From: a virus
Lineage: Duplodnaviria > Heunggongvirae > Uroviricota > Caudoviricetes
DNA length: 54,443 nucleotides
Virus record (IMG/VR): IMGVR_UViG_2579778982_000031
Strand: one strand, 5' to 3'
The position numbers and the translations under genes are program-made. Position 1 is the stretch's first letter. Each line of letters begins with the position of its first letter. Below are positions 5,198 through 34,875 of this stretch, in pieces. The notes under the pieces are model-generated. The model did not search any database, was not told where the DNA came from, and saw only the letters and a program-made list of their open reading frames with translations.

Positions 5198-5224
5198 AAG
5201 CCCGATTACTCGGGCTTTTGTTCC
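5198..5224 (+). terminator. Rho-independent terminator between convergent genes
   Basis: 7-bp stem AAGCCCG/CGGGCTT with loop ATTACT, followed by TTTGTT; lies between the Q stop and the stop of the reverse-strand gene. Confidence 0.5.
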
Positions 5225-6225
5225 ACATCTCGAACATAGAGAATTACTGCTGACTTAATGTCACCATCGACGTGTTTTGCGTTAATGCTCAAATGTACAG
5301 GCTTTCTTTCCCACTCAGCTCGCTGCAATGCTTCTTTGTTTCCGGATTCATCAAGGAAAACATCCTGAACTACGCAGGTTAGACGTTGGTCGGTATCTAC
5401 GCGTCGGACCTTAACTTTGAAACTCTCTGGGTCAGTATTATTGACTTCTTCAATTCGGTAAATACCATCAATCCTCATTTCTGATGAACGTCTACGAGCA
5501 TTCGTAACCAACTCTTTCGCCATTTCAGAATCAATAGTAACGCCATCAATTTGAGCGTTATCTGAACGCACAAAGGATTTGACCATTTGGGTTTTAGCGT
5601 CATACGACATACGGTCCATGTTATCGAGAAGTGGTTTTTCCGCAATCATTTCTGAAATAACCCGCAGGCGTTTAGTTTCTTGCTCGCTCATGATCTGCAT
5701 AGTCCGGAGATGTTCTTTCTCTCCATCCTTAGCAATTTCTGCAAGGCGAATATCTTTACGGTTGTCCAAGAACCGTTTAAATACTGTTACTCCGCCCCAG
5801 ATGACTGCTGCGCCGAGAACAGTAAACATGATCTCAGTTGCGTTCATTTTACCAACAAGTTCCTGTGTGAGTTTGGTTAAAAAGCCATCAATGTTGATTT
5901 CTACTATTGAAGAACCCTGTTCTACCGTAACTTCTATTTCTAGGGCATCAAGTTCTTCTTTGGTCAGTTTGCGGACGTCAGGGACACCGTACTTGGCAAG
6001 GGCATATGATTTGTTGATTTGAGCTTGCATTTCAACAAATCCCTTCATAACTGAAGGTGTTAGCGATCTGTTGAATTTTTCACCGGTTAATCTGATGGTA
6101 AGGTTTGGCCATCCGTTGAAACTTAAACTGTCAGGTAAACCATAACCATCAAGATAGCTTTCAAGCAAATCGAAGGCTTGCTGCTCAGATTCAATGTCTA
6201 CATGAATCTCATCAAACTTATCCAA
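5206..6225 (-). CDS. Hypothetical single-pass membrane protein (moron)
   Basis: 339-aa ORF opposite to all phage genes; one central hydrophobic helix (IMFTVLGAAVIWGGVTVF); charged coiled-coil-like C-terminal half; no recognisable catalytic motif. Confidence 0.5.
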   Translation of the reverse strand: MDKFDEIHVDIESEQQAFDLLESYLDGYGLPDSLSFNGWPNLTIRLTGEKFNRSLTPSVMKGFVEMQAQINKSYALAKYGVPDVRKLTKEELDALEIEVTVEQGSSIVEINIDGFLTKLTQELVGKMNATEIMFTVLGAAVIWGGVTVFKRFLDNRKDIRLAEIAKDGEKEHLRTMQIMSEQETKRLRVISEMIAEKPLLDNMDRMSYDAKTQMVKSFVRSDNAQIDGVTIDSEMAKELVTNARRRSSEMRIDGIYRIEEVNNTDPESFKVKVRRVDTDQRLTCVVQDVFLDESGNKEALQRAEWERKPVHLSINAKHVDGDIKSAVILYVRDVEQKPE

Positions 6226-6898: not shown

Positions 6899-7951
6899 AT
6901 GAAAAATACTGTAAAAATAAACAGTGTTGATTTAATCAACGCTGATTGCCTGCATTTTATTCAGTCCCTGCCTGATGATTCCATTGACCTGATTGTTACC
7001 GATCCGCCTTACTTCAAGGTGAAACCCAACGGCTGGGACAATCAGTGGAAAGGGGACGAAGATTACCTTAAGTGGCTGGACCACTGTCTGGCCCAGTTCT
7101 GGCGGGTGTTGAAACCTGCCGGAAGCCTTTACCTGTTCTGTGGGCATCGCCTGGCATCTGATATTGAGATCATGATGCGTGAACGTTTCAACGTGCTTAA
7201 CCATATCATCTGGGCGAAGCCGTCCGGACGTTGGAATGGGTGTAATAAAGAAAGTCTGCGCGCATATTTTCCTGCCACAGAGCGCGTTCTGTTTGCTGAA
7301 CATTACCAGGGGCCATATCGCGGCAAAAGTGACGGCTATGCGGCAAAAGAAAGGGAACTCAAACAGCACATAATGGCACCGCTGATATCGTATTTCAGGG
7401 ATGCTCGTGCCGAACTGGGTATAACGGCAAAACAGATTGCCGAAGCCACTGGTAAGAAAAATATGGTTTCCCACTGGTTTGGTGCCAGTCAGTGGCAGTT
7501 GCCGAATGAGGCTGACTACCGGAAGTTGCAGGCACTGTTTTCCCGTATAGCGGCAGAGAAGTTTCAGGAACAACAACTGGAACAACCACACCACCAGCTG
7601 GTGGCATCTTATGATTCACTGAATCGCAAATATTATGAATTGCTGGATGAGTTTAAAACTCTCCGGCGCTATTTCTCCGTATCAGTTTCCGTGCCTTATA
7701 CCGACGTCTGGACGCATAAACCCGTTCAGTTCTACCCGGGTAAACATCCGTGTGAGAAGCCTGCGGATATGCTCCGGCAAATAATCAGTGCCAGTAGTCG
7801 ACAAGGCGATCTGGTTGCTGATTTCTTTATGGGATCCGGTTCCACAATAAAAGCGGCAATGGCGCTGGGGCGTCGGGCGTTAGGTGTTGAACTTGAGTCA
7901 GAGCGGTTTAATCAGACGGTGAAAGAGGTAAGTGAACTGGTGGGGAAATAA
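6899..7951 (+). CDS. DNA methyltransferase (N4/N6 type)
   Basis: Motif IV DLIVTDPPY near the N-terminus and motif I FFMGSGST near the C-terminus (beta-class order); sits between Q and the lysis genes. Confidence 0.75.
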   Translation: MKNTVKINSVDLINADCLHFIQSLPDDSIDLIVTDPPYFKVKPNGWDNQWKGDEDYLKWLDHCLAQFWRVLKPAGSLYLFCGHRLASDIEIMMRERFNVLNHIIWAKPSGRWNGCNKESLRAYFPATERVLFAEHYQGPYRGKSDGYAAKERELKQHIMAPLISYFRDARAELGITAKQIAEATGKKNMVSHWFGASQWQLPNEADYRKLQALFSRIAAEKFQEQQLEQPHHQLVASYDSLNRKYYELLDEFKTLRRYFSVSVSVPYTDVWTHKPVQFYPGKHPCEKPADMLRQIISASSRQGDLVADFFMGSGSTIKAAMALGRRALGVELESERFNQTVKEVSELVGK

Positions 7952-9219: not shown

Positions 9220-9361
9220 TACTCCTGTACCGTTTATACCTAATCCGCTGACGTATGGTGCCAGTCTGGAGCTGAATGTGAGTCTGTTGTCTGCGCTGGC
9301 TAACTGCAATCGGGATAAAGCTGATATTCGTAAAATAGATGCAGAGAGAACTAACCATTAA
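9104..9361 (+). CDS. Rz1-like o-spanin lipoprotein (overlapped frame)
   Basis: Starts inside Rz in another frame; signal peptide with lipobox LLTGC, proline-rich mature part; runs past the Rz stop (overlapped architecture). Confidence 0.7.
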   Translation: MMIVLHVLCLLPLLTGCGSTRTVYVSVPVAPLPPSLTSDTPVPFIPNPLTYGASLELNVSLLSALANCNRDKADIRKIDAERTNH

Positions 9362-9382
9362 GCAATAAAATTGTCAAATTAA

Positions 9383-10009
9383 TCAGTTGTCAAATGAATA
9401 TACGTTAAAGGTATATGTCGACATAATTTCACCAAGTACCTCAATACATACACTTTTTTTATGAAAATTACTGGGAAATGAACTTAGCTCCTCAAGACAT
9501 TGCACATAAGTGCTGATATCACTTGCATCACGTTCAAGGAATTTCACTTGACCAAAAGAAGGAGTTTTAATCTTGGTTCTTTGCTGGAGTATATGGATAA
9601 AGTGTGTAGTTGGTGAAACTATTACTCTTGAAATATCGGAAATGATGTCTTCTTGAACTTGCCGATAAAGTAAATCCTTTGGGTAATGGTGTTTAATCTC
9701 GATGGTTGCAACATTGCCATTATGTTCAGACGTTAATATCGACTGGTTATAAAGTGATATGTCAACAGCGCCGATACCGAGTTTTGGATGCTCACTTAAA
9801 GCAGTTAGTGTGCTGATTTGATTGAGTATAACAACTAACTCATCACGTATTTGTGTTTCATGTTTGCGATTGTAGAAGTAGCCATTCAGTTCATTTAACT
9901 TTTTATGCATCCTATCGTGACTAATTGCTTCGATCAGTAAATCCTGAATCATACTTTTCTCTAGGTAATCCGAACGGTTGTAAGTGACAGTATTGTGCTG
10001 GCATGTCAT
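9383..10009 (-). CDS. Hypothetical protein (moron, gene 2 of a reverse-strand pair)
   Basis: 208-aa ORF in an AT-rich block between Rz1 and the packaging genes; no motif recognised. Confidence 0.45.
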   Translation of the reverse strand: MTCQHNTVTYNRSDYLEKSMIQDLLIEAISHDRMHKKLNELNGYFYNRKHETQIRDELVVILNQISTLTALSEHPKLGIGAVDISLYNQSILTSEHNGNVATIEIKHHYPKDLLYRQVQEDIISDISRVIVSPTTHFIHILQQRTKIKTPSFGQVKFLERDASDISTYVQCLEELSSFPSNFHKKSVCIEVLGEIMSTYTFNVYSFDN

Positions 10010-10052
10010 TAATATGTAAAGGTATTGTGAATGCCAGAAAGATAACGAAGTA

Positions 10053-10406
10053 TCATCGATAGAAAAACTTTACAGCCCACTCGTAAACAGCTTTGTAAAT
10101 CGGTTCATGGTAAATACTATCGATACTATTCAGATGTGCGATCATCGCCTCCACAGTTGTAGTGGTTGTTTCTAATATTTCGATTATTGCAGGGCGGTCA
10201 TCATCTTCATCGAAGTATTCGAACAGCAGTACAGGTTTACCATGCAATTCAGCATCTGAGACTCTAAGGTTACAACTACCGCTCAACTCAAAGTGAATTT
10301 TGTAATTACCTTCTACAGAATGGCCTACGGGGAAAAAGTATAGGGTGTCATCTTTGTTCAAAAGCCATTCCCATTCATAACTATTCATTTGTGAACTCCT
10401 GTTCAT
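10053..10406 (-). CDS. Hypothetical small acidic protein (moron, gene 1 of the pair)
   Basis: 117-aa ORF 43 bp upstream of the 208-aa gene on the same strand; acidic DEDDD patch. Confidence 0.45.
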   Translation of the reverse strand: MNRSSQMNSYEWEWLLNKDDTLYFFPVGHSVEGNYKIHFELSGSCNLRVSDAELHGKPVLLFEYFDEDDDRPAIIEILETTTTTVEAMIAHLNSIDSIYHEPIYKAVYEWAVKFFYR

Positions 10407-10538
10407 TGAGTTTCAACAACTATCAACTACATCCAGCGAAGCATAAAAGATCGTTTATGGCAAAACCGGAATGGAGTGCGATTCGATTCTGAGAAGGGTG
10501 CCACGTATCGTACGCGAACCATCCAAGAGGATTATGCA

Positions 10539-29526: not shown

Positions 29527-30101
29527 GCAGCCCTCACAATGTAATTAAATGAAATATTACGTGGGCGTGTCTCTGCTGCACCGACAATACTGGTGCTCAA
29601 CCCCGTTGCCGTTCGTTTGTTATTTTTATTTCCTTCAATCAGACAGTTGTAATCATCATTACCAATTAACGAATTGGTGGCATCAATACTGTCCGGGGAC
29701 AAGGCATTAGTAGTGGAACTTAAAGTCAGCATCTCGTCTGAACTTGGAAGATTTTTTAATGGTGTTTCATTGCGTGAAATACCCGCGTAAAAAAAGGACT
29801 CATGCCTGTGAGCTTCAAAAGAGTCATCCTGAAGACTTAGCAAGGCTCGCCCCGCATCCACTCCACGTCCATCATCCCAGCCACGAATAAATTCACCGCG
29901 TAAATCAGGCAATTTATTGGTCGGGTAAGCCTTTGCCAGTTCCGGGTATTCTTCAGCAGAAAAAGCCGCACCATTGCATTTCAGCCAGCCTGTTGGCGGA
30001 GTGGCTGAAGGCCACGGAACAGGCACCCCAACCGGTAATGCAGAGCCTTCTCCCAAACCAACGTTTATGAAAATGCAGAAATAACGAGCAAATGGCATCA
30101 T
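29523..30101 (-). CDS. Alternative tail fibre C-terminal segment (silent in this orientation)
   Basis: Contains GWLKCNGAAFSAEEYPELAKAY...LPDLRGEFIRGWDDGRG, typical of Mu S/P2 H-type receptor-binding C-termini; 5' end crosses the right crossover repeat. Confidence 0.65.
   Translation of the reverse strand: MMPFARYFCIFINVGLGEGSALPVGVPVPWPSATPPTGWLKCNGAAFSAEEYPELAKAYPTNKLPDLRGEFIRGWDDGRGVDAGRALLSLQDDSFEAHRHESFFYAGISRNETPLKNLPSSDEMLTLSSTTNALSPDSIDATNSLIGNDDYNCLIEGNKNNKRTATGLSTSIVGAAETRPRNISFNYIVRAA
30046..30064. repeat. Right crossover site of the invertible tail-fibre segment
   Basis: Reverse complement of the 28150-28168 repeat (≥15 bp identical), just upstream of the invertase gene. Confidence 0.6.
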
Positions 30102-30127
30102 TCCTGCTTTTGTCAGGGAGATCTACC

Positions 30128-30682
30128 ATGCTTATTGGCTATGTACGTGTGTCAACAAATGACCAGAACACAGATCTACAACGTAATGCGCTGAACTGTG
30201 CAGGATGCGAGCTGATTTTTGAAGACAAGGTAAGCGGTACAAAGTCCGAAAGGCCGGGACTGAAAAAACTGCTCAGGACATTATCGGCAGGTGACACTCT
30301 GGTTGTCTGGAAGCTGGATCGGCTGGGACGTAGTATGCGGCATCTGGTCATTCTGGTTGAGGAGTTGCGCGAACGTGGCGTTAATTTTCGCAGCCTGACG
30401 GATGCTATTGATACCAGCACACCGATGGGGCGTTTTTTCTTTCATGTGATGGGTGCCCTGGCTGAAATGGAACGAGAACTGATTGTTGAACGAACAAAAG
30501 CTGGACTGGAAGCTGCTCGCGCACAGGGACGAATTGGTGGACGTCGTCCCAAACTTACACCAGAACAATGGGCGCAGGCCGGGCGATTAATTGCATCAGG
30601 CGTTCCTCGCCAGAAGGTGGCTATTATCTATGATGTTGGTGTGTCAACTTTGTATAAGAGGTTTCCAGCCAGGGTTATATAA
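30128..30682 (+). CDS. pin: Serine DNA invertase (Pin/Gin/Hin family)
   Basis: MLIGYVRVSTNDQNTDLQRNAL...VVWKLDRLGRSM...; catalytic Ser in the VRVST motif and C-terminal HTH; close from memory to e14 Pin. Confidence 0.9.
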   Translation: MLIGYVRVSTNDQNTDLQRNALNCAGCELIFEDKVSGTKSERPGLKKLLRTLSAGDTLVVWKLDRLGRSMRHLVILVEELRERGVNFRSLTDAIDTSTPMGRFFFHVMGALAEMERELIVERTKAGLEAARAQGRIGGRRPKLTPEQWAQAGRLIASGVPRQKVAIIYDVGVSTLYKRFPARVI

Positions 30683-31024
30683 AACCGCAGACATGTCGTA
30701 TGCAGGAGGTGTCGCGGTTGGCTGGTGAACTTTTGATAGTGCGAGTATTGAATGATTTCCAGCCGTTACTGATTTTACGCATTTTTGTATGAGAGGGTTT
30801 GCACCTCCTTCCACCGATTCTCCATGACTTTACGCCACTGTCTCTAGAACTGCTATGTGCCAACAGCAGACATTCATAGCACACAGTTTTGTTAACAACT
30901 AGAAATAAGTTTAGGAATAGTCGCGATATATCTATTAAAGATACAATCATTCAAATAAATGAGACATTTTCGGCATGCTGGGAAAAGTAATTAAAAATGG
31001 TGAAAGCCAATTATTTTTTATTAA

Positions 31025-31531
31025 TCAACTTTTAAACCATAAGTCATCTCGATAGAGTAGACTAATTTTCGTTGCATCTTTTGATGCTAGAGTCGTACAC
31101 TCTCCTTTATCAAACTCATCTAGACTCACAAATGTAAATTCGTCACCATTTTTTTCTTTCGGAAACACCATAAAGACTACTTCGAAAGTACAATCACTAT
31201 ACACATTTTTTAAGAATTGCTGAAGTGCTCTATACTTTCCTATTTCACAATCAGTAAGTGTAAAGGAGGTACACCCATCTGTTGAGTGATACTTCGCATC
31301 TAAAAGAATATAAGAGGATTCGTCAGCGTCAATAATGAAATCGGGGCGTTTCCCCCCATATGATTTCAAGTTTGCAGATAAAGTATTTATTCCTTGCTCA
31401 ACATGTTCAAATTTCCACTTGGATTTTTCCAGCCATCTACTAGCATATTTCTCACCATCTTGACCAGCCGTTATAGAGTATTGTTTTCTTAATGCGCTGC
31501 ACATTTCGTCTAAATTTAACATAAATTCCAT
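31025..31531 (-). CDS. Hypothetical protein with PD-(D/E)xK nuclease-like motif
   Basis: AT-rich ORF; putative motif ...E...RPDFIIDADESSYILLDAKY (PD...D-A-K spacing). ATG chosen at MEFML. Motif assignment is by eye only. Confidence 0.4.
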   Translation of the reverse strand: MEFMLNLDEMCSALRKQYSITAGQDGEKYASRWLEKSKWKFEHVEQGINTLSANLKSYGGKRPDFIIDADESSYILLDAKYHSTDGCTSFTLTDCEIGKYRALQQFLKNVYSDCTFEVVFMVFPKEKNGDEFTFVSLDEFDKGECTTLASKDATKISLLYRDDLWFKS

Positions 31532-31799
31532 GTTCCTTTTTTTTAGTATAATTATTAACATCGGCAGTATTTAATAATTCTTTAAAAATAAATTTTCAGG
31601 CTCATACCAATTATATCTTCAAGCATTATTATCAAGCATATTCGAGACCTCTGCAATTCGCTCACAGCGGATCTCGCCTAGCGAGCAGGTCTGCTCAGTG
31701 CCATAATTAGTCTCATCAGCAGACTATAGTTGTGCTCAATCGGAGACATGTGGCAAACATGAGGAACATTATGTCCGTCAAAGAGTTTTCGTAGCTTAG

Positions 31800-32015
31800 G
31801 CATTTCGATGCTGGCAACGGGTCAGTGTAACGCTTACTATATCGGTCCACTTTAGTCTTAAGGGTTCAATATGGCGTTGCACCTATTGTCCGCTGACCAA
31901 GAATCTTCGGGTGATTCAACTTCTGTTGGGTCATAAGAAACTGGAAAGCACATTCCGTTATCTGGGCATTGAAGTCGATGATGCGTTAGAGATCTCTGAA
32001 TCGATTGAAGTCTAA
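31800..32015 (+). pseudogene. Tyrosine-recombinase (lambda Int-like) C-terminal remnant
   Basis: Frame ending at TAA 32013-32015 encodes ...VIQLLLGHKKLESTFRYLGIEVDD..., matching the LLGHK-x6-RY catalytic-Tyr box of lambda-type integrases; in-frame stop at 31797 and no N-terminal domain. Confidence 0.35.
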
Positions 32016-32121: not shown

Positions 32122-34875
32122 CTATTTGATTGCTGCATTGATTCGTTTATATCTTTGGGTAAAGGCCTCTTTGCCACCTTCCATCACTCGGCATATCTCA
32201 TCGCGTATGGAAGGTTCTTGAAGACCCCCTTGCGCCACAATTCTGGTTTGACCAGACCGAATATCAAGGGCAATGACGTTTTCCGCGTCACCATTCACGA
32301 CGATGTTAGCGTTGTGCGTGACTACTAAAACCTGCCGTTTTTGTTTGATCTCACGCAATTGCGTCACGATAAGATCATAGATTAAGTGGTTATCAAGATC
32401 ATCCTCAGGCTGATCAAGTATAAGAGGCTCATTGCCATATGAAAGGATAAATGCAAGGAGAGCCGCCGTTTTTTGCCCCGGAGATCCTTGCTCTACGGGT
32501 TTGAAACTCTCGCCGTTCTTGAGGCTATATCTGATATCCAGAGAATCGCCTGGAAACCAGCACTGAATTCGATCTATCTGTTCCGGAGTTAGCCCCTGAA
32601 TGAGGGATACAAAACGTCGATCTTTGCAGGATTCCACCGCCATAGTATCGTTTTCATGGATTGCAAGTAGCGATGATTTTATTTTCTCAATTTTATCATC
32701 CATAGTATTGGATTGGTCTTGCGTTAAATAAGCCAGCAAGCCCTCATCCCCGTCAACAACTCCAATGTCGCGGTCAAATCCGCCACCACTGCGGCCGATC
32801 AGGTTACGGAATTCTTCCTCAACCGTAATCTTGTTTCCAAACGGAATGACATTGATCTGTACATATGAATTGCCGACGAGAGTATCCTTGAGAAAGTCCT
32901 CACGAAGTTTGGTTATCAATGCTCGATGCTCATGGAGTTTGACCAAGTATTCTTCCGCGCTCTTCTGATGCTGCGCAAGAGTTTCTCTCTTTTTGTCGAA
33001 TCCCTTGAGCTTATCTTCGAAATCTTGTCGCTGCTTAACCAGAACACCATATGCAGATGGATCACCTGCGTCTGCTGCGCTGAGTTGACCGAGGAGGGCG
33101 TTGTATTCATGGCTCGCCGCTGTAATTCTTTTCGATATTCCCAAGTCTGATCGAGTTTGATTCCATGAGTTCTTCACATCATCAATCCGCTGCGCGATCG
33201 AGTTCATCTCTGTCTGAAGCTTCTCAAACGTCGCACGGATGTCCTTGATGGTATCGAAGAGTTCTTTGTCATCCGCATTCCCAATGTCGAAATATTGTAA
33301 ATCCAATTCTGCTGGCAGTAGGCTTCCAGAAATATCTCGGACCTGTTCGGCGGAATCCTCCCAAGTCGTTACCCAGGAGTCCATAGCCTTACTCTGGTTC
33401 TGTCTGAGTTGGTAAGCCTTAAGGACATCCGCGTGGCCCGCCTTTTCAAAAACATCGAGTTTGCGTTTGACGTCTTCAAGCTGACCTTTGGTTACCGATT
33501 CTTCCTGAAGCCCAGCCTGAACTTCACGCTCTTGGGCGCGAAGCGAGAGATATTTGGAAACCAGTTCATCCCACTTAAGCTGCCAATCACGATGATTGAC
33601 CTCCGGGGCATCATCGACAACCTGCAAGAGTGCTTGGGGATGCTTTGCCAATTCGAATATCTGTTTCTGGCTGTAAATCCTGACAGGAAATCGTTGTGCT
33701 ATGTCTCCCTCGGAATCACACCAGACTCCGGGAGCGGTCTCTTCCTCGATGCTGTATATGTCGTCGGTATTAGACCAGGTGATTCGGAAACGGCCACCGT
33801 CTTTTCGAAAGCCTACAGTTATTTTCGTGGAATCTTTTAACAGCCCTTCATCTTGGCGGTCTTTCGAAGTTTGACTGTATTTGGTAAATTCCTTTTCAAG
33901 GCTCTTGGGGATTTCTCCCTTTCGTTTAAGAGCAATCCGCAGGAATTCCAACGAAGTCGATTTCCCAGTGCCTCGTCCACCAATGATAGTGTTGAGCCAG
34001 GGGTTCAGTTGACAAGTTAAAGATTGCCCTCGTCCTAAGTACTTCGCATCATCAACCACGATACTTTCGATGGCAAGTTGTCCATGGATATTTGGGTCAC
34101 CAGTGAAGTTGTCCGACCGCTTCAGTGAAAGAGCCCCATCAACGAGCGCCAGCCGTAATCCGTCATAAGATGGCTCCGACATTTTTACCCAAGTGAAATG
34201 GCTACCCGGGTAGCGTTGATTTCCGGTACCGGACGGATGATGGGAATCGGTTCCAAGAATCTCTGCCCAATTCAAATTCTTGCCAATATAGAGCTGCGGT
34301 TTTGCTTTAGCAAGGTCCGTTACCTCCATAGCAAAAACACATTTGTTGTCAAGCACCTGCTCTAGTGTGTTGCCCGTACAGACCGTAAAAAGTCCGCTAG
34401 CCTGATCTACATGAGCAGGTATTGCAAGTCCTCCTGACCTAGCAATTTCGTCGATCACCTCAACTGCTGAGCATTCAGAGCAGCCGTCGCTCTTTCCTTT
34501 GGTGCCGCGATACCTGACCGCACCAAGCAGTGAGTCGATATCAGAGGTTGTCTTGTCTTCGCCGAAAATGGCCAGAATATGGATATTCCCCTGAACAGTA
34601 AGCTCAACACCTGGGAATAAGTAGAGTGGTCGATAATCTTCATGACTCTCAGATGCCAGTTCCTTGAGTGCCTGCTTGAGCGGATCAATCCAAGCGCCTG
34701 AATTATGGTCCGTGACAGCGACACAATCGATGCCTTGTCGCATGTAGTTGAGCAGCCAATCTTTATGAGTGATCTGCATATACTGGGCCTGATTAGGGCC
34801 TTTTCCATAATCGTCCGATGCCGGAGTGTGATTATGGAAGTCGAATTTCCACCACCGAGAACCAATCCAGTTCAT
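32122..34875 (-). CDS. PHP-domain phosphoesterase fused to SMC/ABC-like ATPase (Ppl-like candidate anti-phage protein)
   Basis: N-terminal PHP motifs (FDFHNHTPASDDYG, AVTDHNS, IPAHVD); Walker A GGRGTGKSTSLEFL; long coiled-coil region; Walker B/D-loop LILDQPEDDLD and H-loop VVTHNANIV. 917 aa. Confidence 0.6.
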   Translation of the reverse strand: MNWIGSRWWKFDFHNHTPASDDYGKGPNQAQYMQITHKDWLLNYMRQGIDCVAVTDHNSGAWIDPLKQALKELASESHEDYRPLYLFPGVELTVQGNIHILAIFGEDKTTSDIDSLLGAVRYRGTKGKSDGCSECSAVEVIDEIARSGGLAIPAHVDQASGLFTVCTGNTLEQVLDNKCVFAMEVTDLAKAKPQLYIGKNLNWAEILGTDSHHPSGTGNQRYPGSHFTWVKMSEPSYDGLRLALVDGALSLKRSDNFTGDPNIHGQLAIESIVVDDAKYLGRGQSLTCQLNPWLNTIIGGRGTGKSTSLEFLRIALKRKGEIPKSLEKEFTKYSQTSKDRQDEGLLKDSTKITVGFRKDGGRFRITWSNTDDIYSIEEETAPGVWCDSEGDIAQRFPVRIYSQKQIFELAKHPQALLQVVDDAPEVNHRDWQLKWDELVSKYLSLRAQEREVQAGLQEESVTKGQLEDVKRKLDVFEKAGHADVLKAYQLRQNQSKAMDSWVTTWEDSAEQVRDISGSLLPAELDLQYFDIGNADDKELFDTIKDIRATFEKLQTEMNSIAQRIDDVKNSWNQTRSDLGISKRITAASHEYNALLGQLSAADAGDPSAYGVLVKQRQDFEDKLKGFDKKRETLAQHQKSAEEYLVKLHEHRALITKLREDFLKDTLVGNSYVQINVIPFGNKITVEEEFRNLIGRSGGGFDRDIGVVDGDEGLLAYLTQDQSNTMDDKIEKIKSSLLAIHENDTMAVESCKDRRFVSLIQGLTPEQIDRIQCWFPGDSLDIRYSLKNGESFKPVEQGSPGQKTAALLAFILSYGNEPLILDQPEDDLDNHLIYDLIVTQLREIKQKRQVLVVTHNANIVVNGDAENVIALDIRSGQTRIVAQGGLQEPSIRDEICRVMEGGKEAFTQRYKRINAAIK

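What the first reader, a model, noticed from the sequence alone, without database searches (positions are those of the whole stretch)
9383..10406. Two-gene AT-rich moron in the bor-equivalent locus between Rz1 and the packaging genes
Two reverse-strand genes (117 aa acidic, then 208 aa) with their own upstream region sit where lambda carries bor, antisense to the late operon. Their composition is markedly AT-rich compared with the flanking phage genes. A small acidic protein ahead of a larger one is a common toxin-immunity or defence-pair layout; neither has a motif I recognise.
Basis: inference. Interest (0 to 1): 0.65.

Follow-up and report, generated by a model that had tools for sequence, protein, structure and literature searches.

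The report
Two independent prophage morons; one nuclease
Two small AT-rich accessory genes sit backwards between the lysis and DNA-packaging genes of an E. coli prophage; they are separately mobile add-ons, not a matched toxin-antidote pair, and the larger is an uncharacterised enzyme with the fold and catalytic motif of restriction endonucleases.

Summary
Two reverse-strand genes lie between Rz1 and the HNH/terminase genes of an E. coli prophage. Their GC is 35-39%, against 48-58% in the flanks. The true starts are further in: 189 aa (9383-9952) and 111 aa (10053-10388).

The "pair" reading does not hold. Across 109 related loci the two genes occur together only in one near-identical E. coli cassette (at least 94% identity). 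Every diverged homologue of either gene (about 30 loci for the large, 17 for the small) sits alone, in the same slot next to the packaging genes. The slot itself is polymorphic: empty, or holding other cargo.

The 111-aa acidic protein remains unassigned.

The most likely role is a prophage-expressed accessory gene, probably anti-phage for the nuclease. That role is inferred, not shown. The finding is an ordinary kind of locus carrying one mildly interesting new nuclease family.

The parts
9383..9952 (-). 189-aa predicted PD-(D/E)xK (restriction-endonuclease-fold) nuclease; a single-gene moron (WP_000613842.1, phrog_12494)
10053..10388 (-). 111-aa acidic protein of unknown fold (WP_001089763.1, phrog_14397); an independent single-gene moron
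9953..10052 (-). 100-bp spacer between the two genes, with the only promoter-like site of the region (TTTACA-17-CACAAT, 10020..9992)
   Evidence: weak: 9 of 12 matches, and fewer sites than in shuffles. Homology with L038/L039, which lack the small gene, runs through this spacer and stops at 10078. The spacer therefore travels with the large gene.
10389..10538 (-). 150-bp region between the small gene and the HNH start codon
   Evidence: No consensus promoter was found here.
10457..10492 (+). Remnant of the 5' end of a Terminase_2-type small terminase gene (ATGGCAAAACCGGAATGG..., reading MAKPEWSAIRF*): a footprint of the phage from which the small-gene module came
   Evidence: The intact terS of L011 starts MAKPDWG. 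The same terS start lies head-to-head with the small-only and large-only homologues (alignments A4 and A5). Window sequence.
9339..10538 (.). Variable cargo region of the lysis-packaging hotspot
   Evidence: Homology to prophages with an empty slot or other cargo stops at 9321-9338 and resumes at 10538/10539. In L110 Rz1 and HNH are 26 bp apart.

Best explanation
The locus is the variable accessory-gene slot between the lysis cassette and the packaging genes of a temperate E. coli phage with an HK97-type head, a contractile tail and an HNH plus P27-type terminase. Two unrelated single-gene morons have been stacked in it by recombination. The 189-aa gene encodes a small, stand-alone, metal-dependent nuclease of the PD-(D/E)xK (restriction-endonuclease) fold, with catalytic residues E32, D64, E85 and K87. 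It belongs to a previously undescribed family. It has no dedicated methyltransferase and no obligatory partner. Most likely it is expressed from the prophage and cuts incoming foreign (phage) nucleic acid, which benefits the lysogen. It is probably switched off in late lytic growth, because the late transcript runs antisense through it. The 111-aa acidic protein is a separate cargo gene of unknown activity that normally sits alone, head-to-head with the small terminase gene. Shown: gene reality, foreign composition, slot polymorphism, independence of the two genes, and nuclease fold plus conserved motif. Inferred: nuclease activity, expression in lysogens, the defence role, and antisense silencing.
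Confidence: 0.5

Rival explanations
1. A functional two-gene system in E. coli: the nuclease is a toxin or effector, and the acidic 111-aa protein is its inhibitor, antitoxin or sensor.
Against: No diverged homologue of either gene has the other within 3-8 kb. The nuclease exists without any upstream partner in Yersinia, Citrobacter and others. L038/L039 keep the nuclease at 96% identity without the small gene. The genes are separated by 100 bp and a recombination breakpoint. The E. coli linkage is explained by one recent cassette (all copies at least 94% identical).
Confidence: 0.12
2. The 189-aa protein is a genuine type II restriction endonuclease. Its protection comes from a methyltransferase elsewhere: the prophage N6/N4 methyltransferase at 6899..7951, or the host Dam or Dcm.
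For: The best structural matches are type II enzymes of similar size. An N6_N4_Mtase gene lies 1.4 kb away. An 81%-identical methyltransferase is also near the Citrobacter homologue, and a D12 methyltransferase is near the Yersinia one. The close family is confined to Enterobacterales.
Against: That methyltransferase is within 3 kb in only some loci carrying the same cassette. 27 of 28 other loci have no DPPY-type methyltransferase ORF. Five Enterobacter contexts have none within 8 kb, and distant relatives have none nearby. 5mC methyltransferases and distant genes were not excluded.
Confidence: 0.1
3. The large gene is a free-standing homing-type endonuclease, or another purely selfish element, that spreads into the terS-proximal site during mixed infections.
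For: It is sporadic, AT-rich and always at the same site next to the packaging genes, in phages with unrelated lysis and head modules. Fragments of the terS 5' end travel with the modules.
Against: The flanks differ (HNH, ParB/Mom, Terminase_2), so one cleavage target is unlikely. The gene is antisense to the late operon, so it should be poorly expressed during lytic co-infection. The unrelated small gene and many other cargos use the same slot, which ordinary mosaic recombination explains.
Confidence: 0.08
4. The genes serve the phage's own lytic cycle, for example host DNA degradation, recombination or a packaging accessory role.
For: The location is next to the packaging genes, and nucleases are common in phage replication and packaging.
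Against: The slot is empty in otherwise similar prophages. The gene is present in only about 1.4% of complete E. coli genomes. It has no homologue in 50,697 isolated phage records. Its orientation is opposite to the late operon.
Confidence: 0.07

Closest known systems
Type II restriction endonucleases of the PD-(D/E)xK fold (R.SwaI 5tgq, BglI 1dmu, EcoRV 1eo3)
   Different: Only 14-15% identity and no sequence-level match to any solved structure. No consistently linked methyltransferase. K30 and the near-invariant N28 and R36 on helix 1 (FYNRKHETQIRD) are features of this family.
Lambda bor and other morons in the lysis-packaging junction of lambdoid phages
   Same: Same position after Rz/Rz1 and same orientation against the late operon (established knowledge for bor). 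Presence/absence polymorphism and foreign composition.
   Different: No similarity to Bor. Neither protein has a signal peptide or lipobox (read directly from the sequences), and there is no Pfam match. Here two morons are stacked.
[quoted passage not shown]
   Same: Same kind of locus and the same 'moron' logic. Not detected by PADLOC, as the authors report for Tai before its discovery.
   Different: No homologue of either protein in the phage collection. Tai blocks tail assembly, whereas the protein here has a nuclease fold. Whether phi80 is in that collection was not verified.
Stand-alone PD-(D/E)xK defence effectors such as CBASS NucC or the Lamassu Cap4-type nuclease LmuA
   Different: Those effectors need a signal-generating or SMC partner, and no such partner is conserved here. 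There are no PADLOC hits.

Membership tests
PD-(D/E)xK nuclease superfamily (restriction-endonuclease-like fold) | alpha-beta-beta-beta-alpha-beta core fold | tested here: met
PD-(D/E)xK nuclease superfamily (restriction-endonuclease-like fold) | Conserved acidic/lysine catalytic motif: D at strand 2, (D/E)xK on strand 3, often E on helix 1 | tested here: met
   E32, D64, E85 and K87 (plus K30) are invariant in 48 relatives of 17-59% identity. Their positions fit the secondary structure.
PD-(D/E)xK nuclease superfamily (restriction-endonuclease-like fold) | Significant match to a curated sequence family of the superfamily | tested here: inconclusive
   The window protein has no Pfam or NCBIfam hit. 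Two of 48 relatives hit PDDEXK_4 (best E 1.2e-3) and one hits HSDR_N (1.4e-4).
PD-(D/E)xK nuclease superfamily (restriction-endonuclease-like fold) | Divalent-metal-dependent phosphodiester cleavage | not testable with these tools
   Needs a biochemical assay.
Type II restriction-modification system | Cognate methyltransferase co-inherited with the endonuclease | tested here: not met
   The N6_N4 methyltransferase at 6899..7951 is near only a subset of cassette loci. 27 of 28 other loci have no DPPY-type methyltransferase within 3 kb. Enterobacter loci have none within 8 kb, and distant relatives have none nearby.
Toxin-antitoxin / toxin-immunity gene pair | The two genes co-occur across diverged homologues | tested here: not met
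   Together only at 94% identity or more; all diverged homologues of each are solitary.
Toxin-antitoxin / toxin-immunity gene pair | Tight operon (overlap or short gap) inherited as one unit | tested here: not met
   There is a 100-bp gap. A recombination breakpoint at 10078 separates the modules in L038/L039.
Toxin-antitoxin / toxin-immunity gene pair | Toxicity of one product neutralised by the other | not testable with these tools
   Needs expression assays.
Known anti-phage defence systems (PADLOC-DB v2.0.0) | Profile match to a component of a listed system | tested here: not met
   No family at E of 1 or less for either protein. As a positive control in the same window, Ppl matched at 2.3e-157.
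Moron (accessory gene inserted between genes that are adjacent in related phages) | Presence/absence polymorphism between conserved neighbours | tested here: met
   The slot is empty in L110, with 26 bp between Rz1 and HNH. Alternative cargos are in L111, L112 and L038.
Moron (accessory gene inserted between genes that are adjacent in related phages) | Nucleotide composition different from the surrounding phage genes | tested here: met
   GC 0.35-0.39 against 0.48-0.58; lowest 0.8% of windows.
Moron (accessory gene inserted between genes that are adjacent in related phages) | Own promoter and terminator, with expression from the prophage | tested here: inconclusive
   One weak promoter-like site before the large gene, none before the small gene, and no terminator-like site. 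No expression data.
Lambda Bor lipoprotein family | Signal peptide with lipobox, and Bor sequence family | tested here: not met
   No Pfam match. The N-termini MIQDLLIEAISHD and MNSYEWEWLLNKDD have no hydrophobic signal or lipobox cysteine.

The most novel reading that the evidence does not exclude
The 189-aa family is a new class of single-protein, methyltransferase-less immune nuclease carried by temperate phages. It would tell self from non-self without a dedicated modification gene, for example by relying on a host-wide mark such as Dam methylation in Enterobacterales, by recognising modified or injecting phage DNA, or by being active only when the late antisense transcript is absent. In this reading the 111-aa acidic protein is a second, independent new anti-phage or anti-defence factor. 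The lysis-packaging junction of lambdoid prophages would then be a rich, barely mined defence hotspot.
Probability: 0.2. Interest if true: 0.6.

Novelty: new member of a known kind. Interest (0 to 1): 0.35.

Why it matters
Prophage morons are a main route by which E. coli gains immunity and fitness genes. If the 189-aa protein is an active defence nuclease, it adds a compact (570 bp) restriction-like enzyme with no methyltransferase. That raises a clear self/non-self question and could have tool value. The analysis also shows that the slot between lysis and packaging genes works as an exchange point. In it, unrelated single-gene cargos, including known defence genes such as Lamassu LmuA, replace each other and leave footprints such as the terS fragment. 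The practical lesson is that two adjacent small genes on one strand should not be read as a toxin-antitoxin pair without checking co-occurrence.

Tried and rejected
1. Direct family assignment. Pfam, NCBIfam and PADLOC gave nothing for either protein, and PHROGs gave only 'unknown function' families.
2. Sequence searches against solved structures, with single-family and superfamily profiles. Nothing below E 0.09.
3. Foldseek of the large model against viral predicted structures. No hit at E of 0.001 or less. The afdb50 library was unavailable.
5. Homologues in isolated phages, by megablast and tblastn. None for either gene.
6. Search of species-representative genomes. A3 was too divergent for pattern design, and A1 found only two loci.
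7. A conserved 'promoter-like' element, TCCGGTTTTGCCAT(GTATAAT), upstream of both gene families looked at first like a shared moron promoter. It turned out to be the start codon and ribosome-binding site of the divergent small terminase gene.
8. Restriction-modification pairing with the nearby methyltransferase. Rejected on co-occurrence.
9. Literature. No paper or DefensePredictor supplement mentions the two RefSeq accessions or the PHROG ids.
10. Promoter and terminator scan. Not informative.

Full report
**What is in the sequence**

The window is an E. coli prophage, 99.9% identical over the region to strain T16R and others. RefSeq annotation of that copy shows the order Q antiterminator, a reverse-strand hypothetical gene, a DNA methyltransferase, holin, endolysin, Rz (DUF2570) and Rz1 (LysC). 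Two reverse-strand hypothetical genes follow, then an HNH endonuclease, a P27-family small terminase, the large terminase, portal, HK97-type head genes and contractile-tail genes.

Their true starts are further in. PHROG profiles align from M20 and M7. RefSeq annotates 189 and 111 aa. All homologues start at those methionines, and an AGGAG precedes the 111-aa start. The genes are therefore 9383..9952 and 10053..10388 on the minus strand, 100 bp apart.

Their GC is 0.354 and 0.393, against 0.48-0.58 for every neighbouring phage gene. Only one other part of the 54-kb window is as AT-rich. Both genes are under purifying selection (dN/dS 0.16-0.26).

**The slot is a cargo hotspot**

Rz/Rz1 or HNH sequences like those flanking the slot are found in 1,864 of 5,426 complete E. 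coli genomes. Only 75 of them carry this cargo. The large gene is in 80 genomes, the small gene in 79, and both are in 73-75.

- In strain FDAARGOS_1373 the slot is empty: Rz1 and HNH are 26 bp apart.
- Other strains carry a 169-aa hypothetical gene or a GrlR-like gene there, on the other strand.
- Homology to these genomes stops at 9321-9338 and resumes at 10538/10539. The variable region is therefore about 9339..10538.

This fits the classical definition of a moron, and the position and orientation of lambda bor (established knowledge).

**The two genes are not a co-evolved pair**

I collected 109 loci from genomes, metagenomes and IMG/VR and searched each for both proteins.

- The two occur together only in the near-identical E. 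coli cassette (at least 94% identity).
- All diverged homologues of the large gene (50-70% identity, about 30 loci; Yersinia, Citrobacter, Enterobacter, Klebsiella and others) lack the small gene within 3-8 kb.
- All diverged homologues of the small gene (58-74% identity, 17 loci) lack the large gene.

The large gene stands alone in Yersinia. In Enterobacter it follows an unrelated 75-aa gene. In L016, L055 and L116 it abuts the terS start directly. The small gene stands alone in seven contexts and in Serratia. Once it is followed by a retropepsin-like gene instead.

Modular exchange is also visible within the same E. coli prophage backbone. L038 and L039 keep the large gene (96% identity), but a 151-aa membrane-type gene on the opposite strand replaces the small gene. 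Homology ends at 10078, at the 3' end of the small gene. L069-71 keep the small gene, while the large gene is truncated to 38 codons by a rearrangement.

A footprint remains in the window. Positions 10457..10492 read ATGGCAAAACCGGAATGG... (MAKPEWSAIRF*). This is the 5' end of a Terminase_2-type small terminase gene, which starts MAKPDWG in L011. In the solitary loci, both gene families lie head-to-head with exactly that terS start. So the two genes are alternative occupants of one slot that became stacked here. I first took the conserved upstream motif for a shared promoter; it is the terS start and ribosome-binding site.

**What the large protein is**

No curated family matches it. A profile search of 1.84 billion representative proteins found only 61 relatives, nearly all stand-alone proteins of about 185-230 aa. 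In an alignment of 48 of them (17-59% identity to the window protein), K30, E32, D64, E85 and K87 are invariant. N28, R36, E54, P56 and D93 are nearly so.

The AlphaFold model is confident (pLDDT 86.9, pTM 0.87). It has the order helix 29-46, strands 50-53, 65-68 and 80-89, helix 97-108, strand 117-127. This places E32 on the first helix, D64 at the start of the second strand and E85-x-K87 on the third strand, which is the canonical PD-(D/E)xK arrangement.

**No methyltransferase partner**

An N6/N4 methyltransferase lies at 6899..7951. It accompanies only some copies of the cassette. 27 of 28 other loci have no DPPY-type methyltransferase ORF within 3 kb. Five Enterobacter contexts have none within 8 kb. 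Three contexts of distant relatives have none either. A classical restriction-modification system is therefore unlikely.

**What the small protein is**

**Likely function**

The evidence for an anti-phage role is circumstantial.

- The slot is a recognised place for prophage immunity genes: Tai lies 'upstream of the packaging module' (PMC11364771).
- A Lamassu LmuA gene sits beside a 50%-identical homologue of the large gene.
- The same prophage carries a Ppl defence gene elsewhere.
- Both genes are antisense to the late operon, the usual arrangement for genes expressed in lysogeny.

No promoter or terminator could be established, and there are no expression data. I commit to 'prophage-expressed nuclease acting on incoming nucleic acid' at roughly 0.45 on its own, given the nuclease fold. 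The composite statement carries 0.5. The rivals are a functional pair, a restriction enzyme using a remote or host methyltransferase, a homing-type selfish endonuclease, and a lytic-cycle function. Each has specific evidence against it, as listed.

**Comparison with what is known, and novelty**

The locus type (moron or defence hotspot) and the enzyme superfamily are well known. New here are:

- a small uncharacterised PD-(D/E)xK family with a distinctive FYNRKHETQIRD helix;
- the evidence that the apparent two-gene operon is two stacked single-gene morons;
- the terS footprint.

Neither RefSeq accession appears in the searchable literature or in the DefensePredictor supplements.

**Verdict**

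This is a real feature of an ordinary kind, with moderate-to-low interest (0.35). It is worth a simple cloning and phage-challenge test of the 189-aa gene.

Noticed in passing
window 32122..34875 (-): A 917-aa protein with an N-terminal PHP-like motif and an AAA/SMC-type ATPase matches the PADLOC 'Ppl' defence model at E 2.3e-157. It is a known defence system, carried just beyond the tail-fibre/invertase end of the prophage.
   Followed up: partly
window 31025..31561 (-), within the AT-rich island at about 30600..31900: The only other region of the window as AT-rich as the finding (GC about 0.36). It holds a 178-aa ORF with a PD...DAK-like motif (RPDFIID...LLDAKYH), next to the Ppl gene. It has no Pfam or PADLOC match and may be another small nuclease.
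   Followed up: partly
window 30092..30682 (+): A 196-aa serine DNA invertase (Pin/Gin-like by its sequence) follows the tail-fibre genes, suggesting a switchable tail-fibre segment.
   Followed up: no
window 5206..6225 (-): A third antisense, AT-rich (GC 0.39-0.41) gene of 339 aa lies directly after the Q antiterminator gene. It has no Pfam or PADLOC family and is probably another moron.
   Followed up: partly
window 6899..7951 (+): A 350-aa N6/N4 DNA methyltransferase (PF01555, E 8.5e-42) lies between Q and the holin. It is present near only some copies of the cassette. An 81%-identical copy is near the Citrobacter homologue of the large gene (L016).
   Followed up: partly
window 10457..10492 (+): A 36-nt remnant of a Terminase_2-type terS 5' end (MAKPEWSAIRF*) lies in a phage that uses an HNH plus P27-type terminase. 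It is a recombination scar showing where the small-gene module came from.
   Followed up: yes
L061 1501..2610 (-): A Lamassu LmuA (Cap4-type nuclease, PADLOC E 3.9e-148) lies immediately beside a 50%-identical homologue of the 189-aa gene, in the same lysis-proximal slot. No LmuB-sized ORF was seen in the 1.5 kb beyond it.
   Followed up: no
L013 5518..5982 (+): In one metagenomic prophage the small-gene homologue is followed on the same strand by a 154-aa retropepsin-like aspartyl protease gene (PF13650, E 8e-6) instead of the nuclease.
   Followed up: no
L117 795..1487 (+): A distant relative of the 189-aa protein (P0057) is followed directly by a 230-aa PDDEXK_4 protein on a short metagenomic contig. 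This may be a tandem pair of related nucleases.
   Followed up: no
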